64,000 nt of DNA from Eremomyces bilateralis CBS 781.70 (lineage: Eukaryota), in NCBI GenBank assembly GCA_010015585.1, contig ML975169.1. One strand, given 5' to 3'. Positions within the stretch are counted from its first letter, which is position 1, and each line of letters starts with the position of its first letter. Below the pieces are notes generated by a model. That model was given only the letters and a program-made list of their open reading frames with translations, had not been told where the DNA came from and ran no database searches. Below, piece by piece: positions 4,136-64,000 of the stretch. A program made the position numbers and the translations under genes.

Positions 4136-5107
4136 TTAAGCCCATCCTATCCTGAGTAATCGCTCGATCATCTTGTCAGCCGTTGCCGACCTGAGATCAC
4201 ACCTGACCGCTCTACCGACGTTGTATCGTACGGGAGCCGGGATATCGCTCGCCATTCTAGGTTCATGAACAATAGCATCCTGGACCAAACCGTCATCCGT
4301 GATGTCAGCCGTCCCCGTGGATCCATCTTCCCATTCGATATCGATTGTGTGGCCCCGGTTTCCACTCGAGACGTTGGTGATGCGGACTCGTCGCTCCTCA
4401 TCCTCGGTTTCGACCGCGTGGGCTTCCTCGGCGTCTCGAGCGAGCTTCTTCACGAGATTGAGTTTGTTTTGGCGGACTATCAGCGCGGCTCGAATGTCAT
4501 CGCCCAGCTTCTTGATGCCATGATTGGGGACGTGCATCGTCTCGAGCCACTGGAATTCGATATCCTGGACCCCGATGCTCTCGGGTAGTGTGTGTTTATG
4601 GATACGGTAGTAATTTGGGTGCCCTCTCGGGTCGGGTCGGTGGAGGAAGACGTAGTATGGGTCGGGAAACCGGGCTTCCTCTGTATATTGTCAGCACATA
4701 GGGCCGGCAAATGGGACGATAAGAAGTACCATTATCGAATATATCGATCCGCAACCCGAGAACAACACCATCGTCCACCGCGTTGGGATCGGGATCGTGG
4801 ACATTGAAGGGCGTAACTCCGACACCGGCGTAATAGACGTTCTCCGTATTGATTCGTTGCTGCTTATCGGCCTGCTCCAACGCCTTGCTTACACGGGCTT
4901 TGGATTTCGCATTCCGAAGAGTAGATGTGGCCCGAGTCAGTCTCGGGACGGTACTGTTGTCGGATAGGATGACGGTTCGGAGTAACGAGCGGCGCTTCCT
5001 CAGGCGTTCAACTGGAGGCATATGTGAGCGACATTCGTGAATAGAGAAACCAATGACATACTTTCGGCCCGAAGGTTTCGAATATCGGATTCGGCGGTGG
5101 TTGCCAT
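4136..5107 (-). CDS. CENP-O/Mcm21-family kinetochore protein, 3 exons: 5107-5062, 5011-4730, 4680-4136
   Basis: FNVHDPDPNAVDDGVVLGLRIDI and PYYVFLHRP...YRIHKHTLP match fungal Cenp-O proteins; the two introns splice in frame. Confidence 0.8.
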
Positions 5108-53847: not shown

Positions 53848-56400
53848 TCATGCGCCATAATGGACAAACTGTGCCCATATCAACGGCTGGTTCCTGTAGG
53901 CCACCCGGACTGCCGGTACGCTCTCATGAAATGCCATAGCAACATCTATATCTTCTACCTTTGTATCTTCACCTCGAAAGAGTGATTCGTAAAATCTTTT
54001 GGCCACCTTTACACATACTCTATCGACCGAATGCCATAGAAAACCAATGACATGTGCGAATCCAGCTACCTGAAAACCGCTCATAATATGAATGGCCTCA
54101 TCACGTAGCTTCACTGTTGTGTCCGTAGGTATCGAACAGGCCGAGATATATGCAATCCTTGAGCGCTCCAATTTTAGTCCAGAAACCGCTTGCACTGTCA
54201 TTAATCCTGAAATATAATCGGAATCGTCCTTATGGAAAACCAGCCCACTCTTAGATGGGTCAACTAGTCATTATATCCGTAACAAGGAAAATGAGCAATG
54301 TTGCAGTCCCTCAAGCTGTTCAGGACGGTATCGGCATTTGGGTGATCAAGCAGCTGTGTTTTCAGGTATGTGTGAATCGACTTCAAGATTGCTTTCTTCT
54401 CATGTTCAACTCCATCAAGGCTAGGAAGGTCCGGCGGCGTCTTTCTCATCGTGACTAGTAATAGACTCTCTATGATGACATCTCGCTTTAGTGAACGCTC
54501 CCGGGCGTATACGAGCGCTTTGATTGACGGTGCGTAAGAAGAAATAGCTCTGTTGAAAACGTTCTCCTCCGATTGCGGTGAGTGATGTCCTGCGGCATGG
54601 AATGGCATCGAACTGGCCAGTCCAGTTCCGATCCACCAAACACTCGGAAGGTCTTGCTTTGATTGCTGTACTCCGAAGTTGCCTTCAACGAGTATCGGCC
54701 TCACACAGACTTTCCAAAGCCAACTCAGGTATTCCCGAAACACTTTATTGTCAGGTTTAAAACGTTTTGAATACTGCATCCAAGTGCCAGCCTCAGAAGC
54801 AGACATATAAGATAGGTCCAAGCATTTGATTTATATTGGCGAGACGATGATCGCATGGCTGCCCAAATCCGTGATGTTGATAAATACAGTCATGCCTCTG
54901 GATGCGCATGCTTTCATTTCCCCGGGTGTTGACTCGAGGAGAAACCGTTCGTAACCGGGGATATCGATATCGCGAATCTTTTGAATGCATCGCTCGAGTT
55001 CCTTCACATTGGTTCGACGCTGTTCCTGAACGATCCTCATTGGCGAGATATCAACTTGACCACGAAGGGGAGCGATAATTTCATCACGAAGCCCTTCAAA
55101 CCGACGAGCTATCTCGGGATACGCTTCTCTGAGTGCCGAAATGTCGCTCCGGTCTCCGATAAGTTGACCAAAGATGACAGTTCGCCCTTTCTCCAGTAAC
55201 TCAAGTGCCTTTTCCGGCTGACCAAATTGAAGGTGAATTGAGCAGGCAGAGGCGGCAAGTCCAGCAAAGAGTGCTACTGCATACTGCATTACTGCTGGTT
55301 GCCATGTTCAAGGGTTCGATTATTGACTATCGGCAGCAGGTTGATAGCGTCCCATAAGAGTTTGGCCGCCGATTCATAGTCTCTCAGCTGCCCAAGTGCC
55401 CTGATGCCAGAAGAAGCAGCGCTTATCCGATGGAAAGGTACCCCATTCTCGCATTTCCAGGCTTGAAAAAATGAATATGCAGACTCGTTCAGATCGGCAC
55501 TCTCTCCCGTTCGCTCATGCCGCCGAACAAGCTTGTTTCCAAGGCTGTTCAACCGGCTAGCTCGATCTGGGAGATCTTCTAGAGTTGAATCAACGGCATG
55601 CTGTGCCACTTGGATTGCTACCTCGAGATCTCCCATCTCACAGGTTCGCTCATACCGCCAACTAAGTATGTTTCCGAGGTTGTCCAAATATCCGGCTCGA
55701 TCCGGGTGGTCATACGGTGTTGAGTCAATGGCAAGCTGTGCCAGTTGGATTGCGTTCTCAAGATCGCCCATCCAGCCGGTTCGCTCATACCGCCGACCAA
55801 GCTTGTTTCCTAGGCTATTCAAATAGCTTGACCGAACTGGGTGGTCATCCGGAGTCGAGTCGAGGGCCTGCTGCGCTGCTCGGATCGCCTCTTCGCGGCC
55901 GGCCGTCTCGCCGGTTCGTTCATACCGGAGAGTAGGCTTAACTCCAAGGCTGTTCAAATAGCCTGGCCGGTCCGAGTGCGCTTTTGGAGTCAAATCAAGC
56001 GCCTGTTCAGCTAGTCTGATTGAATCCTCAAGATCTTTAATATCATCAGTCCGCTCAAATCGCCTTCCAAGCCATTTTCCCTAAGGAGTTTACACGGCTA
56101 GCTCGCTCAGAATGACCAAGCGGAGTAGTGGATACAGCGTTCTGGGCAAGGAAAATAGTTTTGTTAAGGTTTTTCACCTGTCCCCTTCGTTCGTATCGTC
56201 TGCCGGACTGGATTCCAAGGGTTATCTGATGCTTCGCAATGTCTGAATGATTTTCAGGCGTGATGGAGATCGCTAGCTCCCCAATGCCGATTGCAATCCA
56301 TAGGGCATCGAGAATGCCTATCTGCTCATAGCTGTAGCCCAGGATTGCGCTCAGCATGTTTGACATTTCAGCCAAGTTTTGATGATCTCTGCTTGCAAGT
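53848..56400 (-). pseudogene. TPR-CHAT (caspase HetF-associated) protease pseudogene
   Basis: 45-aa TPR-like repeats, then CHAT motifs WLWKVCVRP, VWWIGTG...MPFHAAG, ISSYAPS, IAHFPCYG, YISACS, FQVAGFAHVIGFLW and WAQFVHYGA. Frameshifts near 56078, 55289 and 54264; in-frame TAA at 54831-54833. Confidence 0.9.
55500..56280 (-). repeat. Coding tandem repeats with 135-bp (45-aa) period
   Basis: Unit TPxDHPxRxxYLNSLGxxLxxRYERTGxxxDLExAI. The DNA strings gcttgtttccaaggctgttcaa (55531) and gcttgtttcctaggctattcaa (55801) are 270 bp apart. Confidence 0.85.
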
Positions 56401-56890
56401 TGGTTCAAATAACTCCATTTGAGCGCCAAGCCGGCCAAATAGCTCAGACTCCATTCTCGACGCTGCCCTTGGACCGTGGAGTATATCACCAACAATATCA
56501 GAACCAGGCGGGAAGTCATGCTCAAAGATCGGCTCTCCAGCATCCCTCATATTGGCTAAAACTGCCTGCCTAAAGTGCCAGCGTAGAAGCGAATCAAGAG
56601 GTGCATCAGGACGAGCAAAATACCCTCGATCAAGGTGATGGCTACCAATGCCTCGCACGTTAGGCCTGAAGGCCATGACCTTATAATTATCCTGCGATAA
56701 CACTTTAGCCACAATTTCCATAAATAGGTATAAACGTACGTCCGGGTTGATTGAAATGAAGTAGTTGTCAAAAAGCTGGTGTATGACGGAATCAAGCAAG
56801 ATTCCATTCTGAACCGAGTTGATAGTGCCTCCACGAGGCGGCTCAATCGAAACCCATCGACCGTAATTATTGTTAATCCAATGATACGTT
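56368..56890 (-). pseudogene. 5'-truncated fungal HNH endonuclease gene remnant
   Basis: HWINNNYGRWVSI...GGTINSVQNGILLDSVIHQLFD...SINPD[intron]DNYK...LLRWHFRQAVLANMRDAGEPIFEHDFPPGSD. The first His region and the start codon are missing. Confidence 0.8.
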
Positions 56891-57049
56891 CGTCTATTCA
56901 GGTATTGACCACTAAATTATCAAATGTTTTGGGTACTCAGTTTTCTACTCTGAACAGAGTATTACTTTTAACCATAATTTCCAGGGGAACAGGCCACGGG
57001 CCTGGAACCATAAGAAATGCCAGTGCTTTTAGTCAAACCGCACTCTGCG

Positions 57050-58111
57050 TCAAAGAGTGATGCTCTGGTTGCCATAGACAGTTTTCGTCCCTACTTGCTC
57101 TGCGATCTTGCTGTCCTGGTTGTTCCATGTGTTGGATACACCACTTGCTGCCTTAATCGTGTCGTCCACCGTGCCTGTCTTCGCTACATCAGCCGGCACT
57201 AACACTGACAGTAGCTCCTTCGCACACGCTGCTGCCGCTCCCGCCGCGTATGGCTGCCACTTCTTGTTCTTATGCGAATCGGCGTAGTCACAGATACCTC
57301 GGATGACAAGACATGGAAAGCTGTTCATCAGGCCTGCCGCCTCCATCTCAAAGCAGAGCACTCCGCCAAATTCCTTACTCACAGTATCCCTCTCCGCAGC
57401 ATTCTTAATGACCTGATTGCCAGATGCAATTTTACCGTAGTAAATCACAAGCTCCTCGTTCGATCGTGGCTGTCGATCCACCTTCTTGTCTTGGCTGCAT
57501 GACTTACATGTCGGCCCTTCCTCGTGGTTGTACGCCGCTTCGAATAGGACGTCCTGTCCGGCGGCCTCGCGTGTGAACTCTGTAAGCCGGCGAAACTTGG
57601 AGACGTGTTCCGAGAGCTTAGTCTTCCGGCGGATTTGGTTGGCTCGCAGTCTGTTAACAGCGTCTAGTAGGAATACCGGTGGGGAATTGAGAAATCCCGT
57701 CCGTTGAAACCCGCTCGGAGTCGACTTCCCAAAGTCGTACTGTATCACTCCGCCGTAGCCTTGATGCGGCTGACTGATAACCACATCTCCCAGCCGGATG
57801 TCCGCTTCAGCACTTGGGACGCCGCCCCCGATGCCGACCATCAGGCCAAACCGTATCGACCTAAATGTTGCTCTCAACTGCGTCGCTACTGCCGCGGCGG
57901 GGTTGTTCCCTATTAGGCCTGCTGGGAGGCAGACGATAACAATATTATGTTCCCCTATGCGCCCGAGCGAGTACAGATTGTTGTCGTGCTCGTCCTGCTC
58001 AAGGTCTTCGTGCTCTTCGTCCAGCATTTCCTGTGCGGCAGCCAGTTCGACCGGCAGCGCACACACCCATCCTACAGTGTATTCCTCGCGTTGAAGACGA
58101 CGGCATGCCAT
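57050..58111 (-). CDS. Stand-alone PNP_UDP (nucleoside phosphorylase-like) NLR-type effector with C-terminal candidate amyloid motif
   Basis: Intact 353-aa ORF with YTVGWVCALPVE, GLMVGIGGG, IRLGDVV, GKIASGN, CFEMEAAG and IRGICDYADSHKNKKWQPYAA. No NACHT follows; it ends NTWNNQDSKIAEQVGTKTVYGNQSITL*. Confidence 0.93.
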   Translation of the reverse strand: MACRRLQREEYTVGWVCALPVELAAAQEMLDEEHEDLEQDEHDNNLYSLGRIGEHNIVIVCLPAGLIGNNPAAAVATQLRATFRSIRFGLMVGIGGGVPSAEADIRLGDVVISQPHQGYGGVIQYDFGKSTPSGFQRTGFLNSPPVFLLDAVNRLRANQIRRKTKLSEHVSKFRRLTEFTREAAGQDVLFEAAYNHEEGPTCKSCSQDKKVDRQPRSNEELVIYYGKIASGNQVIKNAAERDTVSKEFGGVLCFEMEAAGLMNSFPCLVIRGICDYADSHKNKKWQPYAAGAAAACAKELLSVLVPADVAKTGTVDDTIKAASGVSNTWNNQDSKIAEQVGTKTVYGNQSITL

Positions 58112-58434
58112 TCAGACGGTCGCTGCGGTGCGGTGAGATAGTTGGAAGGAGAAAGCCGCAAGGCTAGAAAGTATACAGGAGCCAGGAGAGTCGAAGAGGG
58201 TTGTGACTACAGGTTGCAACACGAGGCCAGCAGTAGCGACCAGTCATATATATATCGCCTGCATTCCACGTCGCCGACATTGTCGCCTGTCTAGCCTTCC
58301 TACTCCCTAATAGGCGCTTGCAGCTAGCAGCGGTAGGGATCGATGTTAAACTGAGAAGTGGGGGACTACCAGTCGTGCGCTGTCATTAGCTATTAATAGA
58401 GTGCACATCGTACGACCCCGGTTTACCAACTACA

Positions 58435-58640
58435 TAATACCACATCGCCGAGTCCTATTAACTACATCCTCACTTGGAACGCCTTCTCCGATGCCTACTA
58501 TCAAGCCAAACCGGATTCACGTGAATGCTGACTTCATCCGGACGGCGACTATCGCTGCTGAGCTGGTCTCAGTAAGGCCCTCAGGTAGACAGGCGATGAC
58601 GACGTTATGTTGGTTGACTTGTCCGAGCGCGTAAATATTT
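58435..58640 (-). pseudogene. Second PNP_UDP fragment (degenerate)
   Basis: NIYALGQVNQHNVVIACLP...AAIVAVRMKSAFT*IRFGLIVGIGEGVPSE, then a frameshift to IGLGDVV; stop at 58517-58519. Confidence 0.85.
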
Positions 58641-59029
58641 GGGATTGAATGGGCTGCGAGAAAGCCTGGGATATCTCGCGGCTTCCACACTTCTAAACTT
58701 AGAATAGCTGGCTTAGGGAAGCAGGAAGATCGAACTGCATGGGACCTTACAACGAATGATATGTATTGCATTACCATGCTTAAGCTGTGTATTGACTTTG
58801 CTTTTTGAATTGCTGCGTCGTTAAGAAATTCAGAATAGAGAAACACAGAATAGCTGAAGAAGGTGACGATTCATTACGTGCCATCTCCTGGTTAAGGTTG
58901 GCAGATAACCTGGCCTTGCGGACTGCATTTGGCGCCGATAATGGTCTGTCCTTAAACCTCAGTCAATCTCTTAAGACACACAGCTCGTAGCCATGATTTT
59001 GTTGTAATACGTGGCCTATCTTCCTAGCC

Positions 59030-59688
59030 ATGTACGCTTCCCCAGATCACCAGCCGGTCAGATTCACGAATGAAGGAGGAGGGGTTAGAGTCCAGGCCGG
59101 TCAGAACATCGTGTATGTGGACTTCAACGTGCAGTAAGTTCGGTCTATTATCTCTCTTTAAGCTTACTAACACGGCGTGATTGTCTATAGCAGGACTACA
59201 CACGATCACAATCCGTTAAACTCCCTCCCTTACGCGCCCAACGCTGCTTTTAACGCATTAGAGAAAGGAGACGACCCTCTCTGCATCCCTGGCACTCGAG
59301 TCGACGTCCTGAACGATATCAGGAAATGGGTCGATGGAGAAGACAAGCGGCATATCTTCTGGCTAAGTGGCTGGGCAGACACCGGAAAGTCCACAATAGC
59401 ACGGACGGTTGCGCGGGAATACTATGGCGGAAGTAGACTAGTCGCAAGCTATTTCTTCTCAAAAGGTGGCGGCGACACTGGCAATGCGACAAAGTTCGTT
59501 GGTACAATCGCGAGGCAACTGGCGGGCAGTTTCCCAAGTTCAAGAGACTGCTCCAGAAAGCCCTACGGTATTGGAGGACGAAGGCATTGTCCATCGCGTC
59601 CTAAAGGATCAATGACAGGAACTCATCACTACACCGCTAGCGCAACTTGCGATCGACTTCGTCACTAATTATAGTGGTTGATGCGCTA
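59030..59688 (+). pseudogene. Truncated NACHT NLR with an N-terminal candidate amyloid-motif exon (59030-59133; intron 59134-59190)
   Basis: Exon 1 MYASPDHQPVRFTNEGGGVRVQAGQNIVYVDFNV splices in frame (GTAAGT...ACTAAC...CTATAG) to LPYAPNAAFN...CIPGTRVDVL...IFWLSGWADTGKSTIARTVA. Later there are frameshifts and a TGA at 59613; similarity ends at the Walker B sequence IVVDAL. Confidence 0.85.
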
Positions 59689-59956
59689 ACTAGAAGAAGG
59701 AAGTTAGAAAAATGGGGCACAAGGCCACAAGGCACTAACGCATGTAATTACATGTAGTCAGCCTAGGTAGTTCCCCACATGGGCCTCGCAGAGAGGCCTG
59801 ACGGGCGTATGAATCTCTCTCTCTCTCGCTGACTCACTGTGACTGTCAACATCACACACTACCATGCTGAAAAGGATATAATGCTATGGGATGCGAAATA
59901 CTCGTCCATATGATTTAATCTAATCTTTTCGTTAACAAATCGACCAGAAACGCAGA

Positions 59957-62077
59957 ATGCTCTGTCAAAATTGCGAGATATCAATCACAGCCGCTTCTGA
60001 ACGGCTGAAACCTGCTGTTTCGGCGGAAAGAGTTCATCAGAAAGCAAACCCACTCCAATATTCACCTTCTACTACATGTAGTTTCTCCCGGTCAGCAAAA
60101 GAAGGGTGCTACATCTGTAAGCAGATCTGGAACTCACTACTGGATGGTAAAGATGATTTCTCCGATGACCTTGATGACTCGGAATTCTACTCTGGCTTTC
60201 CGGCGGAATGGAAGACTTTCGGGGAATGGTGGACTGGTGGAAACTCGACAATCTACTTCGAAATGCGCAGTTTAGAAGGCTATGTTGACCTGTCATTGAC
60301 AGCGAGGAGTCCAGCCCGGAGTATCAATTTTGTTCTTGCACCAATACCGACAAACGGAATACACACGGCCTCGTCTATAGAGCCGCCCGTCCGCGGGGCG
60401 ACCATTTCAGCACCGGGAACACTCGATTTGTGCATTCACTGGTTTCGAACCTGCTCAGCGTCCCATACCAAGTGCCGTAAACTAGAACTCGAATTACAAT
60501 CCTTTACGCCCAAAAGATTGGTTGAAATAGCTACTGAGGATGATGGACATTCTTTCAGGTGGAGGATCGTTTGTCCCGCCGATATTGGAAATATCCCTTA
60601 CTTCACACTGAGCCATTGCTGGGGCACGTCTCAGCGCACATGCCTAATGAGCAATGCCTTCCGCGCGTTTGCAGACTTTACTTCGTTTTCTGGCCTACCG
60701 AAAACCTATCAGCATGCCTTTCTTGTCACTTTTTCGCTAGGATACCGGTTCATTTGGATCGACTCGCTCTGTATCGTCCAAGACGATGAGGAAGACTGGA
60801 AGGCTCAAGCTTCGATGATGAGCTCGGTCTATAAAGGTGCCTGCTGTAATATCGCTGCGACATGGGCTCCAAACGGAGATTGGGGCTGTTTTATTCCGAC
60901 AAGAGCATCACCTTTGATTACATTGGATCTCGGGCTTGGCCAGGCTATAGCATATAAGGTTTCACTGGCAGCATCCAACCAGTATTACGACGATCTAGTA
61001 GAGGCCCCGCTTAACCAACGCGCCTGGGTTGTTCAAGAGCGATACCTAGCAAGGAAGCAGTTAAGCTTTACCAGGAGTGGAGCATATTGGGAATGCCACG
61101 AGCTAGTCGCCTCGGAACAATTTCCCACCGGTGTCCCTAAGGAATCGCGCGACTTTCGTCCTTATAGCCACGCCGGGCCACCCACCGGCAAACCCACCGT
61201 GAATCTCGACGACCCCATCACTCTTCAAGCTGCCTGGGTAGCGCTGGTGGACTTCTACTCGGGTTGTCAGCTGACTAAGCTCTCTGATAAGACGGTGGCA
61301 CTCGCGGGCCTGGCAGAGGAGGTAAGGAGAGCTATGGAAGATGAGTACCTTGCGGGACTTTGGAAGAAAGACCTCGTAAAACAATTATGCTGGGCGACGG
61401 ATTTTGATGTTCGAAGAAGAGCTAAGCGACTCCGGATACCAACTTTCGTAGCACCCACCTGGTCTTGGATGAGTGTGGACGGACCAGTTATGACTGACTT
61501 ACGGTACCGCTTCCAAGAGGAAGATGTGTCCTGCACAGAGGTCCTCGACGTCTCGATTCAGCCGAACCACGGGCTACACAGCTTTACATCATCCAAGTTA
61601 GTCCTGCGAGGAATAGCGCTGTTCGCTCAAGCTGTGCCGCCCGGCAGTTCAGTCCACCAAGAGGACGATGATGACTGGGAATTTCGATTTACCGATCTCC
61701 CTGAGGTCGGTCAACCCTGTATGGATAAAGCGGCAAGCACCAAGGTAAGCATTATGTGGGACGAGAACTTGCCCTGCCCCGAGTCAGGACCTGAAAGACG
61801 GGCAAGTTTCCTTCAAGAGCGCCAGTCCAAGCTTCTATGCATGTTGGTCTCTATTAACGAGGGTATACCTGGCGGCTTGATTCTTAGAAGACTGTCCGAT
61901 GCAACAGATGGGGTCAAGTATGTTAGAATGGGCATATTTAGCGAATGTCGCGGCTTCCTCGACTTTTTGTGCGCAAGGCTCAATCTTCCGCCTGGGGAAA
62001 CCAAGGACAAGGACATACATGTAGATTTTGTTGACAATAGGTTGGCGGATGTTGTCCATACTGTGACTGTTGTTTAG
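59957..62077 (+). CDS. HET-domain heterokaryon incompatibility protein
   Basis: Intact 706-aa ORF with PKRLV, YFTLSHCWG, IWIDSLCIVQDDEEDW, PLNQRAWVVQERYLA, YLAGLW and APTWSW motifs. Confidence 0.93.
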   Translation: MLCQNCEISITAASERLKPAVSAERVHQKANPLQYSPSTTCSFSRSAKEGCYICKQIWNSLLDGKDDFSDDLDDSEFYSGFPAEWKTFGEWWTGGNSTIYFEMRSLEGYVDLSLTARSPARSINFVLAPIPTNGIHTASSIEPPVRGATISAPGTLDLCIHWFRTCSASHTKCRKLELELQSFTPKRLVEIATEDDGHSFRWRIVCPADIGNIPYFTLSHCWGTSQRTCLMSNAFRAFADFTSFSGLPKTYQHAFLVTFSLGYRFIWIDSLCIVQDDEEDWKAQASMMSSVYKGACCNIAATWAPNGDWGCFIPTRASPLITLDLGLGQAIAYKVSLAASNQYYDDLVEAPLNQRAWVVQERYLARKQLSFTRSGAYWECHELVASEQFPTGVPKESRDFRPYSHAGPPTGKPTVNLDDPITLQAAWVALVDFYSGCQLTKLSDKTVALAGLAEEVRRAMEDEYLAGLWKKDLVKQLCWATDFDVRRRAKRLRIPTFVAPTWSWMSVDGPVMTDLRYRFQEEDVSCTEVLDVSIQPNHGLHSFTSSKLVLRGIALFAQAVPPGSSVHQEDDDDWEFRFTDLPEVGQPCMDKAASTKVSIMWDENLPCPESGPERRASFLQERQSKLLCMLVSINEGIPGGLILRRLSDATDGVKYVRMGIFSECRGFLDFLCARLNLPPGETKDKDIHVDFVDNRLADVVHTVTVV

Positions 62078-62911: not shown

Positions 62912-64000
62912 GTCAAGAAGCCGATAAAGCTGAAAGGCTCCAAAAGGAAATGAACGGTTAGTGTCAGCCTCTATTCAGATGTCCATCCGAACTTTGATTG
63001 TTAACGCGCCACAGCCTGTCTCGGCTCCCTGTGCTTTGGCGACATCCACGCTCGGCGGCAAGACATAGCCGCCGCCCATCCAAATACATGTGACTGGCTT
63101 TTTACTACGACTGAATACAAGAAATGGTGGGACCGTACCGACCTACAAAGTCATAACGGAGTTCTTTGGATCAAGGGCAAGCCGGGAGCGGGAAAGTCGA
63201 CGTTGATGAAGCACACTTTAGGCCATCTCGAAAAGACTTCCGTCAACAACTTGGTCATAGCGTATTTCTTCAACGCTCGAGGCGGTATTTTCGAGAAGAC
63301 TCCTCTCGGCATGCTTCGATCGATTGTCCACCAGCTCGTTGATAAAGAAGCTATGCTATACGAGAATTTCGCCTCTATCTTTCGCGAGAGGCAGAGAATA
63401 CACACAGGAGATTGGGAGTGGCGACAGTCAGAACTGAAGGAGTTTATACTCTCAGAAATCAGGCAGTGGAAGTCGAAGCCACTCGTGCTTCTCGTTGACG
63501 CGCTAGACGAGTGCAACGAGGTAGATGTGTGGGACGTAGTTGGTTTTCTGGAGTTGCTAAGCATCTATGCCGTTAGATTTGGTGCTCCTCTAAGGATTTG
63601 TCTCTCGAGTCGTCACTATCCTAGTGTTAGAGTGAAGAGGAGTCTTGAGTTGACGGTGGAGAAGAGTGAAAATCACCAAGAAGATATAGCGAGATATATC
63701 AAGGAAAGACTGACGAAAGAGGACGACGACGATATAGAGGATTTGGAAGATATCGAGGATGAGATCGGGAGAAGAGCAAACGGGATTTTCATGTGGGTTG
63801 CCATTGTAGTCTCTCTACTTAACAAGGCCTACTATGAGGGCCGCATGGAAGTCATGCGCAAGACATTAGAGGAAGTACCGAACGATCTCGAGGAGGTGTT
63901 CGACAACCTCTTGAGAAAAGATGGTGGAAACAAGGCCGAGACAATACTCATGCTTCAATGGGTGCTGCTCTGTCAGCGGCTGCTGAAGCCTGAAGAGCTC
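62912..64000 (+). CDS. NACHT-domain NLR, 5' part (intron 62957-63014); runs off the right edge; first exon uncertain (possibly 62749-62785)
   Basis: Open from 63015 to the window end: CLGSLCF...RRQDIAAAHPNTCDWL, Walker A VLWIKGKPGAGKSTLMK, Walker B LLVDALDEC, ICLSSRHY and ANGIFMWV. Confidence 0.9.

What the first reader, a model, noticed from the sequence alone, without database searches (positions are those of the whole stretch)
57050..59688. Divergent PNP_UDP effector / NLR gene pair sharing a candidate amyloid signalling motif
Seen: the stand-alone PNP_UDP protein ends WNNQDSKIAEQVGTKTVYGNQSI-TL* (57127-57053). The head-to-head NACHT gene, 918 bp away start to start, opens with a small exon missed by the ORF track, encoding FTNEGGGVRVQAGQNIVYVDFNV (59063-59131). 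The two align without gaps over 23 residues, with 5 identities (N, Q, G, V, Y) and conservative pairs W/F, Q/E, I/V, V/A, N/D, I/V. Pattern: [FW]xNxxxx[IV]xxQxGxxxVYx[ND]xx[IV]. Established: fungal NLRs such as NWD2/HET-S and PNT1/HELLP activate an adjacently encoded effector by templating an amyloid fold from an N-terminal motif onto the effector's C-terminal motif; HRAM, PP, sigma and a PNP_UDP-associated motif (PUASM) are described. Inference: this is such a system with a nucleoside/nucleotide-degrading effector. From memory the motif, with its RHIM-like VQAG/EQVG core, does not match the HRAM, PP or sigma consensus and only loosely resembles PUASM, so it may be a new family or subfamily.
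Basis: partly seen in the sequence, partly recalled or inferred. Interest (0 to 1): 0.92.

Follow-up and report, generated by a model that had tools for sequence, protein, structure and literature searches.

The report
Known-type amyloid-signalling pair, receptor gene decayed
A fungal nucleosidase "executioner" gene and its neighbouring immune-receptor gene share a short prion-like signalling tag of an already catalogued type, but in this copy the receptor gene is a broken stump, so the locus is a modest addition to a known system rather than a new one.

Summary
The 353-aa PNP_UDP ORF (58111-57053, minus) ends in the stated tail. A small exon (59030-59133) encodes the stated peptide ahead of a NACHT exon.

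The tail is conserved in 9 of the 120 best PNP homologs. It also sits on HeLo effectors. In 3 of 3 DNA loci with enough flank, a divergent NACHT gene starts with a small exon carrying the receptor-side peptide.

The motif is not a new family on the receptor side. Two NLRs with the same N-terminal motif are listed as class NLR39 (annotated PP-like) in Wojciechowski et al. 2022. That paper's single NLR39 effector hit, a HeLo protein of Paraphaeosphaeria sporulosa, carries this same tail. What I did not find in print is PNP_UDP as an effector for this class.

The NACHT gene in the window is a pseudogene. It has a P-loop G-to-D change, three frameshifts and an in-frame stop. Homology ends at 59688. 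A 95-98% identical second copy keeps the receptor, and its RNA-like contigs show the splice and an unspliced tail.

Verdict: new member of a known kind, moderate interest.

The parts
57053..58111 (-). PNP_UDP effector CDS, 353 aa, intact single ORF; stop codon at 57050-57052. The public gene model starts at an internal Met (325 aa).
   Evidence: PF01048, E 4.2e-11; a 325-aa model matches 100% over 58027-57053. The N-terminus MACRRLQREEYTVGW... matches homolog starts (P0064). PADLOC CBASS effector, PN-superfamily, E 1.3e-17.
57059..57127 (-). Effector-side signalling motif WNNQDSKIAEQVGTKTVYGNQSI (residues 329-351), followed by TL*.
   Evidence: Conserved in 9 of the 120 best PNP homologs and on HeLo effectors (L003, L004, P0254). 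The window has Ala where most relatives have the first Gly of GxQxG.
58472..58639 (-). Relic of a second PNP_UDP domain (about 56 codons) in the intergenic region.
   Evidence: tblastn of P0002/P0243 residues 17-72: 55% identity, E 5e-16. No Pfam hit for the ORF fragment.
59030..59133 (+). NLR exon 1 (34 codons plus 2 nt). The receptor-side motif FTNEGGGVRVQAGQNIVYVDFNV is at 59063-59131.
   Evidence: It aligns with NLR39-class N-termini. The same small exon plus GTAAG donor is present in L001 and L003. The window has Val30 (59117-59119, GTG) where the second copy has Gly (59118 T>G).
59134..59193 (+). Intron: GT..AG, 60 nt, with a TACTAAC branch site.
   Evidence: The joint 59133->59194 is seen only in contigs of the RNA-like run X3, not in DNA runs X1/X2 (table 5). 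Those contigs belong to the 95-98% identical second copy.
59194..59688 (+). Decayed remnant of the NACHT exon. Lesions: P-loop GWADTGKS (GAC at 59378-59380, against GWAGTGKS in the closest relatives); frameshifts at 59528-59529, 59566-59585 and 59649-59664; in-frame TGA at 59613-59615 (Trp in relatives). Homology ends after ...VVDAL (59688).
   Evidence: (P0121 matches only residues 1-146 of 556). Pfam NPHP3_N covers only profile positions 11-88 of 164. A DNA contig with 0 differences spans 59482-59734 (record 8).

Best explanation
The locus is a member of the fungal NLR/effector amyloid-signalling gene clusters. The effector is a stand-alone PNP_UDP enzyme, most likely an ATP/dATP nucleosidase of the immune, Cap17-like kind. 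It carries one C-terminal copy of a roughly 24-residue motif with a G-x-Q-x-G-type core. The divergently transcribed NACHT(-WD40) receptor starts with a small exon that encodes the receptor-side version of this motif, which is the published class NLR39 (PP/RHIM-like).

The inferred mechanism is as follows. Ligand-driven oligomerisation of the receptor brings the N-terminal motifs together into a cross-beta nucleus. That nucleus templates the effector tail, and the clustered nucleosidase then depletes ATP and stops or kills the cell.

In this window the receptor copy is a pseudogene stump. The intact effector is therefore either orphaned or controlled in trans by the receptor of a 95-98% identical second locus.

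Shown here: the gene structures, motif conservation, recurrent adjacency, class assignment, and the decay of the receptor. Inferred: amyloid formation, templating, enzyme substrate, and trans control.
For: Effector:
- PF01048.
- PADLOC CBASS effector, PN-superfamily, E 1.3e-17.
- A PNP domain from a fungal NLR was shown to be an ATP nucleosidase in vitro (Rousset et al. preprint, passages).

Tail family:
- 9 of the 120 best PNP homologs carry it with 18 invariant columns.
- A tail-profile search among longer proteins found 18 proteins at E<=1. Eleven carry a PF01048 annotation, one (P0254) is a HeLo protein, and six are short or unannotated, most of them PNP C-terminal pieces.

Receptor side:
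- The same motif sits at the N-terminus of P0189, P0220, P0235 and P0162, and in the exon 1 of L001 and L003.

Adjacency:
- The window, L001 (PNP + NACHT + WD40) and L003 (HeLo + NLR) make 3 of 3 DNA loci with upstream flank.
- In Eremomyces bilateralis the PNP and NLR have consecutive accessions, KAF1811528/9.
- Three further PNP/NLR pairs share a contig length.

Relatedness of the two sides:
- hhalign P 1.7e-4, ungapped.
- The receptor-side HMM hits 8 of the 9 tails in one register and none of the other 110 tails in that register.

Class:
- NLR39 in published Table S2, and the co-occurrence table.

RNA-like contigs of the second copy:
- The splice 59133/59194 is present.
- One contig covers 56975-58183 with no joint, so the tail is not spliced out.

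Pseudogene.
Against: - No experiment shows that NLR39-class peptides form amyloid or prions. The source paper validated only PUASM.
- Neither peptide hits a Pfam amyloid-motif model (HET-s PF11558, PP/Ses_B PF17046, NACHT_sigma PF17106, RHIM), even at E<=10 (HMMER filters may drop weak hits).
- The window pair alone is only weakly similar (p about 0.03).
- Both window copies deviate at otherwise conserved glycines: Ala in the tail, and Arg and Val in exon 1.
- All RNA-like contigs laid are 90-99% alike, none 99% or more, so they belong to the second copy. Expression of the window copy is not shown.
- The kind of run X3 is a guess by the tool. The DNA-absent GT..AG joint is what suggests it is RNA.
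- The NLR of L003 also has two stops where relatives have Trp.
Confidence: 0.75

Rival explanations
1. A truly new amyloid-signalling family or subfamily, distinct from every published class.
For: - The effector-side tail (TWNNxxSKIGEQVGTKTVxGNQSITL) is far from the receptor-side consensus. The receptor HMM scores the tails at only 2.9-10.6 bits.
- There is no Pfam amyloid-motif hit.
- The strict PP pattern NxGxQxGxN and the PUASM pattern are absent.
- In the passages and tables I could search, the source paper lists PNP_UDP only with NLR12, NLR32 and PF01048_015.
Against: - The receptor side equals the published NLR39 class by direct table look-up.
- The published NLR39 effector hit XP_018036994.1 (residues 236-257) is this very tail.
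- I could not see the PF01048_015 (PUASM2) sequences. Four of its six listed NLRs are in Table S2, where they are NB-ARC proteins (two of them also annotated TPR, one with no NOD annotation of its own) and are scored 'noasm'; the other two were not found there. This makes identity unlikely but does not exclude it.
Confidence: 0.1
2. The shared peptide is a conserved docking or regulatory tag that does not work through an amyloid fold (for example a short linear interaction motif).
For: - There are no fibril or prion data for this class.
- The effector-side motif is rich in charged and polar residues (D, K, E, K) at positions that are hydrophobic in HRAM.
Against: - Position (the extreme C-terminus of effectors, the extreme N-terminus of NLRs), length of about 24 residues, Gly/Asn/Gln-rich composition, a GxQxG core, and sharing between PNP_UDP and pore-forming HeLo effectors all match the established amyloid-signalling architecture.
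- The source paper reports that 80% of NLR39 instances pass ArchCandy (Table 1).
Confidence: 0.12
3. Chance resemblance between two unrelated low-complexity ends.
For: The window pair alone has 5 identities in 23 residues, with a shuffle p of about 0.03.
Against: - Strong conservation on each side.
- The same register at profile level, P 1.7e-4.
- Recurrence of the pairing at 3 of 3 DNA loci, plus the consecutive accession pairs.
Confidence: 0.03

Closest known systems
NLR39 motif class (annotated PP) of Wojciechowski et al. 2022, including the pair XP_018036993.1 / XP_018036994.1 of Paraphaeosphaeria sporulosa
   Same: The receptor-side motif sits at residues about 9-35 of NACHT-WD NLRs and aligns with listed members. 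The effector tail of the published HeLo partner is the same tail family (E 9e-10).
   Different: The effector here is PNP_UDP rather than HeLo. Table 1 of the paper gives NLR39 0 neighbouring effectors and 2 effector hits. Here the pairing is seen repeatedly next door. In this window the receptor is a pseudogene.
PNT1 / HELLP / SBP PP-motif system (Podospora, Chaetomium)
   Same: An NLR N-terminal motif and an effector C-terminal motif of about 20 residues with a GxQxG segment. One receptor class serves effectors of different kinds (review passages).
   Different: The strict pseudo-palindrome NxGxQxGxN is absent. Lys (or Arg/Lys on the receptor side) sits at -4 and +4 of the central Gln instead. 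There is no hit to Pfam PF17046, which Pysz et al. 2025 name as the PP profile.
PUASM (NLR32) PNP_UDP/NLR pairs, e.g. Colletotrichum EQB50682.1 / EQB50683.1
   Same: A stand-alone PNP_UDP effector with one C-terminal motif, next to a NACHT(-WD40) NLR that carries the motif at its N-terminus. This class has been validated by FTIR, AFM, ThT and Podospora foci.
   Different: The PUASM signature FxGxGxQxxGxGxF is absent from both window peptides, from all 120 PNP tails and from all 120 NLR N-termini examined.
HRAM family (HET-S/NWD2), including the PNP_UDP-associated HRAM3-like NLR12
   Same: The same signalling logic. NLR12 also occurs as a single copy on PNP_UDP tails. An HRAM3-like class (H at position 3, K15, G19) is present among this PNP's homologs (P0021) and this NLR's homologs (P0164, P0172, P0185, P0223).
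   Different: The window tail has polar residues at HRAM core positions 5, 10 and 16. It is not doubled. There is no PF11558 hit.
Cap17 / DtcC immune ATP nucleosidases (CBASS, Detocs) and fungal NLR-fused PNP domains
   Same: PF01048 domain, and a match to the PADLOC CBASS PN-superfamily effector model. A fungal NLR PNP domain cleaves ATP in vitro.
   Different: Here the domain is a separate protein that would be recruited through a terminal motif. It is not fused to the sensor or gated by a nucleotide signal. Its activity is untested.

Membership tests
Fungal NLR/effector amyloid-signalling gene pair (HET-S/NWD2 type) | The effector has a short motif at its extreme C-terminus, beyond the globular domain | tested here: met
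   PF01048 ends at residue 300 of 353. The motif is at 329-351.
Fungal NLR/effector amyloid-signalling gene pair (HET-S/NWD2 type) | The NLR N-terminus carries a homologous motif | tested here: met
   Exon 1 peptide; hhalign P 1.7e-4, ungapped; the same register in 8 of 9 tails.
Fungal NLR/effector amyloid-signalling gene pair (HET-S/NWD2 type) | The genes are adjacent, and the pairing recurs in other genomes | tested here: met
   The window, L001 and L003 (3 of 3 loci with flank); KAF1811528/9; XP_018036993/4.
Fungal NLR/effector amyloid-signalling gene pair (HET-S/NWD2 type) | An intact NLR (NOD plus repeats) able to sense and oligomerise | tested here: not met
   P-loop G to D, 3 frameshifts, 1 stop, truncation at 59688. 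Only residues 1-146 of the 556-aa relative are matched. This feature is met in L001 and probably in the second copy (P0121).
Fungal NLR/effector amyloid-signalling gene pair (HET-S/NWD2 type) | The motifs form amyloid and the receptor side templates the effector side | not testable with these tools
   Needs ThT/EM, Podospora foci and cross-seeding.
NLR39 motif class (Wojciechowski et al. 2022) | A 24-residue motif near NLR residues 8-35, aligned to listed members | tested here: met
   PSN61266.1 (12-35) and OAK94516.1 (9-32) are P0189 and P0235. Both align column for column with window residues 12-34.
NLR39 motif class (Wojciechowski et al. 2022) | G-hydrophobic-Q-hydrophobic-G core | tested here: inconclusive
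   GxQxG is present in 8 of the 120 PNP tails and 2 of the 120 NLR N-termini examined. The window copies read RVQAG and AEQVG instead.
NLR39 motif class (Wojciechowski et al. 2022) | A score above threshold with the authors' HMM | not testable with these tools
   The HMM supplements (s008, s014, s015, s020) cannot be read here.
PP motif (Pfam PF17046; NxGxQxGxN) | A match to the Pfam profile | tested here: not met
   No family at E<=10 for either peptide. The filters may drop weak hits.
PP motif (Pfam PF17046; NxGxQxGxN) | A pseudo-palindrome with Asn at -4 and +4 of the central Gln | tested here: not met
   Regex N.G.Q.G.N: 0 of 120 tails, 0 of 120 N-termini, and absent from both window peptides.
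PUASM | FxGxGxQxxGxGxF | tested here: not met
   Regex absent everywhere examined. The pattern is taken from the paper.
PUASM2 / PF01048_015 | Sequence likeness to the listed pairs (e.g. EGY20718.1 / EGY20717.1) | not testable with these tools
   The sequences cannot be fetched. Of its six listed NLRs, the four found in Table S2 are NB-ARC proteins scored 'noasm'.
HRAM | Hydrophobic residues at 5, 8, 10, 16, 18; G19; two repeats on the effector; PF11558 | tested here: not met
   The tail has D5, E10 and T16, and is a single copy. No PF11558 hit.
RHIM | Pfam RHIM profile; [IV]Q[IV]G core (the core is recalled, not from a call) | tested here: not met
   No Pfam hit at E<=10. The cores here are VQAG and EQVG.
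PNP_UDP_1 / immune ATP nucleosidase clade | PF01048 domain, and likeness to defence-system PNP effectors | tested here: met
   PF01048 at 43.1 bits against a cut-off of 25.1. PADLOC PDLC00759, E 1.3e-17. The best PDB match is MTA/SAH nucleosidase, 6e-6.
PNP_UDP_1 / immune ATP nucleosidase clade | ATP/dATP N-glycosidase activity | not testable with these tools
   Needs an enzyme assay. The only precedent is the passage on a Hyaloscypha NLR PNP domain.

The most novel reading that the evidence does not exclude
The tail TWNNxxSKIGEQVGTKTVxGNQSITL is the long-missing effector-side partner of the NLR39 receptors. It is a portable module: it is encoded on its own exon in the HeLo genes and is almost unchanged between PNP_UDP and HeLo effectors. 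Its K-x-G-x-Q-x-G-x-K signature bridges PP and RHIM. It would couple one receptor class both to membrane attack and to ATP depletion. After loss of the cis receptor, the intact effector in this window would be fired in trans by the receptor of the duplicated locus.
Probability: 0.35. Interest if true: 0.5.

Novelty: new member of a known kind. Interest (0 to 1): 0.35.

Why it matters
It links a catalogued but effector-less receptor motif class (NLR39: 0 neighbouring effectors in the published survey) to concrete effector partners encoded next door. One of these is a PNP_UDP nucleosidase.

This gives a testable pair for asking whether prion-like templating can switch on a metabolic (ATP-depleting) executioner as well as a pore former.

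It also shows birth-and-death turnover at such loci: a duplicated pair in which one receptor copy has decayed while its effector stays intact.

It does not open a new category of system.

Tried and rejected
- Supplement archives 9 and 10 of PMC9815663 could not be unpacked. The HMM and FASTA supplements cannot be read. So I could not score the peptides with the published HRAM, PP, sigma or PUASM profiles, or see the PF01048_015 (PUASM2) sequences.
- Word searches of the readable supplements for tail or N-terminal words found none.
- Pfam at E<=10 gave no amyloid-motif family for the tails or for exon 1.
- The profile search of the tail against 1.84 billion cluster representatives returned only 3 short fragments. 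Representatives at 50% identity are mostly tail-less PNPs, so this says little about family size.
- The metagenome scan gave only 4 loci.
- Sequencing runs: no holder is on record as RNA. X3 and X4 are guessed to be RNA.
- Nothing laid from X3 is 99% or more alike, so there is no statement on expression of the window copy.
- A RIP-like origin of the differences between the two copies is inconclusive. Window A against G in the other copy is preceded by T at 7 of 10 listed sites. Window T against C is followed by A at only 2 of 13.
- There are no other copies of either motif in the window and no internal DNA repeats of the locus.
- A first version of the shuffle script timed out and was rerun.
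- I did not fold or dock the peptides, because structure predictors are not informative for cross-beta heteromers.
Full report
**What is in the sequence**

On the minus strand a single ORF runs from 58111 to 57053 (353 aa). Pfam places PNP_UDP_1 on residues 13-300 (E 4.2e-11). That leaves about 50 residues of tail, ending ...SNTWNNQDSKIAEQVGTKTVYGNQSITL*.

The start at 58111 is supported by homologs that begin the same way (P0064). The public 325-aa model (P0243) starts at an internal Met and matches 58027-57053 at 100%.

On the plus strand, 918 bp away, an ATG at 59030 opens a 104-nt exon encoding MYASPDHQPVRFTNEGGGVRVQAGQNIVYVDFNV. It is followed by GTAAGT, a TACTAAC branch site and two in-frame AG acceptors (59190 and 59193). 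The NACHT reading frame follows.

**Is it more than chance?**

- For the window pair alone the support is weak. The best ungapped BLOSUM62 segment scores 26. Shuffled tails reach that score in 68 of 2000 trials and shuffled N-termini in 51 of 2000.
- The tail is a conserved family. Among the 120 best PNP homologs, 9 carry it, with 18 invariant columns. A tenth, P0064, carries a tail of the receptor type.
- A profile of the tails, searched among longer proteins, found 18 proteins at E<=1. Eleven carry a PF01048 annotation and one is a HeLo protein, P0254 (E 9e-10). Six are short or unannotated, and most of these read as PNP C-terminal pieces.
- On the receptor side, the same N-terminal peptide is present in P0189, P0220, P0235 and P0162 among the 120 best relatives of the NACHT exon. 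Many other gene models start inside the intron and miss the small exon.
- Profile-profile comparison of 7 receptor-side peptides with 10 tails gives P 1.7e-4.
- A plain HMM of the receptor side hits 8 of the 9 tails in that one register at 2.9-10.6 bits. It hits none of the other 110 tails in that register.

**Adjacency elsewhere**

A metagenome scan with the tail alignment returned four loci. Two have upstream flank.

- L001 has a 353-aa PNP with the tail and a divergent NACHT-WD40 gene. The first small exon of that gene reads MNLSQGSPQVSFTNEGGRTGVQASHYEVHGNNII, followed by a GTAAGC donor.
- L003 has a HeLo (PF14479) effector whose tail...STWNNYNSKIGEQVETKNVYGNQNTTF*, lies on its own exon. 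It also has a divergent NLR with exon 1 MATPADSKVGITNAGGKVGIQAVNYIAHGTTVVK plus GTAAGC.

With the window, that is 3 of 3 DNA loci in which the neighbourhood can be read.

At the protein level:
- The closest named relatives, Eremomyces bilateralis KAF1811528.1 (PNP, 97.5% identity) and KAF1811529.1 (NLR), have consecutive accessions on one contig.
- Three more PNP/NLR pairs share a contig length: P0083/P0126, P0032/P0127 and P0251/P0128. For those three, adjacency itself is not shown.

**What the motif is in published terms**

Papers and how much of each I read:
- Wojciechowski et al. 2022 (PMC9815663): passages of the main text and searches of supplement files 1-8 and 11.
- Daskalov et al. 2015 (PMC4518210): parts 1-2 of 5.
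- Passages only: PMC5485727, PMC12261475, PMC8086366, PMC4986451.

Comparison with each published class:
- PUASM is defined by FxGxGxQxxGxGxF. That pattern is absent from both peptides and from all 240 termini examined.
- HRAM needs hydrophobic residues at positions 5, 8, 10, 16 and 18, and G19. The tail has D5, E10 and T16 and is not doubled. A separate HRAM3-like class (H3, K15, G19) does exist among the relatives: the P0021 tail and the N-termini of P0164, P0172, P0185 and P0223.
- Receptor side: the decisive result is a table look-up. P0189 is PSN61266.1 and P0235 is OAK94516.1. Table S2 of the 2022 paper lists both as asm_id NLR39, at residues 12-35 and 9-32. These are the columns that align with window residues 12-34.
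- What the paper says about NLR39: Table 1 annotates it as PP, with 20 NLRs, 0 neighbouring effector hits, 2 effector hits and one genome co-occurrence. The text says its G-hydrophobic-Q-hydrophobic-G pattern resembles PP.
- Effector side: the single co-occurrence is XP_018036993.1 with XP_018036994.1 (residues 236-257) of Paraphaeosphaeria sporulosa, a HeLo-like protein. XP_018036994.1 is P0254, whose tail NTWNNRNSKIGEQVGTKNVYGNQNITV belongs to the tail family found here.

So both sides of the window's pair belong to a catalogued, PP/RHIM-like class.

**What I did not find in print**

I did not find PNP_UDP reported as an effector for this class.
- The paper's passage on effector association names PNP_UDP only with NLR12, NLR32 and PF01048_015.
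- 'NLR39' occurs only in files 2 and 7 of the readable supplements.
- A library search for NLR39, 'PP motif' and PNP_UDP found 5 papers holding two or more of the terms. Three were listed, and only this paper holds 'NLR39'.

Caveats on that claim:
- File 2 is cut, so only 12 of the 20 NLR39 rows are visible.
- Archives 9 and 10 and the HMM/FASTA files could not be read.
- PF01048_015 is called PUASM2 by Pysz et al. 2025. I could not compare its sequences. Of its six listed NLRs, four are in Table S2, where they are NB-ARC proteins scored 'noasm'. Two (EGY20718.1 and CCT68202.1) were not found there. It is probably a different class.

**Fine structure of the motif**

Effector tails read K-I-G-E-Q-V-G-T-K, a pseudo-palindrome around Gln with Lys at -4 and +4, where the PP definition has Asn. 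A V-x-G-N-Q-S-I stretch follows.

Receptor peptides read [RK]-x-[GA]-[VI]-Q-A-[GS] ... x-G-[NDT].

As described for HRAM r0 motifs, the receptor side is poorer in charged residues than the effector side.

Neither Pfam PF17046 (the PP profile) nor PF11558, PF17106 or the RHIM model hits either peptide at E<=10.

**The receptor gene in this window is dead**

Against P0121 (556 aa), only residues 1-146 find a match, and the match is spread over two frames. Reading the three frames shows the following:
- P-loop: GWADTGKS (GAC at 59378-59380), where the closest relatives have GWAGTGKS.
- Frameshifts: at 59528-59529, 59566-59585 and 59649-59664.
- In-frame stop: TGA at 59613-59615, where relatives have Trp.
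- Truncation: loss of all likeness after ...VVDAL at 59688.

Pfam sees only positions 11-88 of 164 of NPHP3_N.

A DNA-run contig with no differences spans 59482-59734, so the lesions are present in the reads.

The motif exon has also drifted. Val30 (GTG) replaces a Gly that is kept in the second copy (59118 T>G) and in most relatives.

**A second copy, and RNA**

Two DNA runs of one organism hold both the window sequence and a 90-99% alike variant, at similar depth.

All nine records of run X3 that were laid belong to the variant; none is 99% or more alike. X3 is guessed by the tool to be RNA. What they show:
- One 2760-nt contig covers 56975-58183 with no joint, so the PNP message includes the tail.
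- Two contigs join 59133 to 59194, skipping 60 nt with GT..AG ends. This joint is absent from both DNA runs, which is what marks X3 as RNA and confirms that the motif exon is spliced to the NACHT exon.

The variant's changes in the tail match P0002 of E. bilateralis. The variant is therefore probably that PNP/NLR locus, which keeps a long NACHT open reading frame (P0121).

Expression of the window copy itself is not shown.

**How it most likely works**

Shown:
- An intact PNP_UDP effector with a conserved terminal motif.
- A receptor-side motif on a small first exon.
- Recurrent divergent pairing.
- The same tail on pore-forming HeLo effectors.

From established knowledge of HET-S/NWD2, PNT1/HELLP and PUASM: activated NLRs oligomerise, their N-terminal motifs nucleate a cross-beta fold, and this fold templates the effector's motif.

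For the enzyme:
- The domain matches the PADLOC model of CBASS PN-superfamily effectors (E 1.3e-17).
- Its nearest solved relatives are MTA/SAH nucleosidases (6e-6).
- A PNP domain from a fungal NLR cleaves ATP in vitro (preprint passages).

I therefore infer an ATP/dATP nucleosidase that is switched on by motif-driven clustering.

In this window the cis receptor cannot do that. The effector is either orphaned or fired in trans by the second copy's receptor, whose partner tail differs from this one at two positions. Both options are inference.

**Verdict**

The claim of a possible new family is not supported. This is a new member of a known kind: an NLR39/PP-like motif with a PNP_UDP effector, in a decaying duplicate locus.

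Its modest value lies in giving NLR39 receptors concrete neighbouring effectors and a consensus effector-side signature to test.

Noticed in passing
window 58472-58639 (-): A relic of a second PNP_UDP domain (55% identical to residues 17-72 of the effector) lies in the intergenic region between the two genes. The second genomic copy has a 58-bp deletion here (58626-58683), seen in both DNA runs.
   Followed up: partly
window 55289-56546 (-) and 56368-56916 (-): Directly downstream of the PNP gene lie TPR_10/TPR_12-like repeats in broken ORFs and an HNH_2 endonuclease fragment (E 1.8e-8). They look like debris of another NLR and of a mobile or HNH gene. Likeness to the second copy stops at 56975.
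   Followed up: partly
window 59676-59750: Summed contig depth in DNA run X1 jumps to about 20,600, against about 300-1,900 in the neighbouring bins. Several contigs begin at 59691-59714. This suggests that a high-copy repeat starts where the NACHT homology ends, so the truncation may be an insertion or recombination break.
   Followed up: no
window 59957-62077 (+) and 63005-64000 (+): A 706-aa HET-domain ORF (E 1e-27) lies here, with a second, unrelated NACHT gene about 900 bp further on (NPHP3_N E 2.6e-33; only 26% identical to the decayed one) that runs off the window. The region is a cluster of incompatibility/NLR-type genes.
   Followed up: no
L003 about 4365-4367 and about 4650 (-): The NLR beside the HeLo effector in metagenome locus L003 has two in-frame stops where relatives have Trp (...YN*AKEQ, ...DDQ*RQL). 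This is the same kind of lesion as the window's DQ*QEL. Receptor decay next to an intact effector may be common.
   Followed up: partly
homologs P0004, P0006, P0008, P0010, P0014, P0017, P0019, P0031, P0035, P0041, P0043: Eleven of the 120 PNP homologs carry a different conserved tail (...FQNYGxVxGKNVLQGQTxxGDSNTLNFS). I could not assign it to a published class. Periconia PVI01693.1 is absent from the 2022 supplement tables that could be searched.
   Followed up: no
NLR homologs P0136, P0140, P0142, P0145, P0146, P0151, P0152 and P0188, P0190, P0193, P0214, P0217, P0222: Close relatives of this NACHT carry two other N-terminal motif types, of the forms F[DN]Nxxx[VI]xNQAGxD[IV]xI and FGNxxxx[VI]QAxxINGSVxI. 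Both have a Q-A core. This suggests a graded superfamily around NLR39.
   Followed up: no
window 56950-59750 against the second copy: Differences between the two copies are mostly transitions. In X1, the window has A or T where the other copy has G or C at 40 sites, against 20 sites the other way round. Among the listed sites, TpA context holds for 7 of 10 A/G sites but only 2 of 13 T/C sites, so a RIP origin is unclear.
   Followed up: partly
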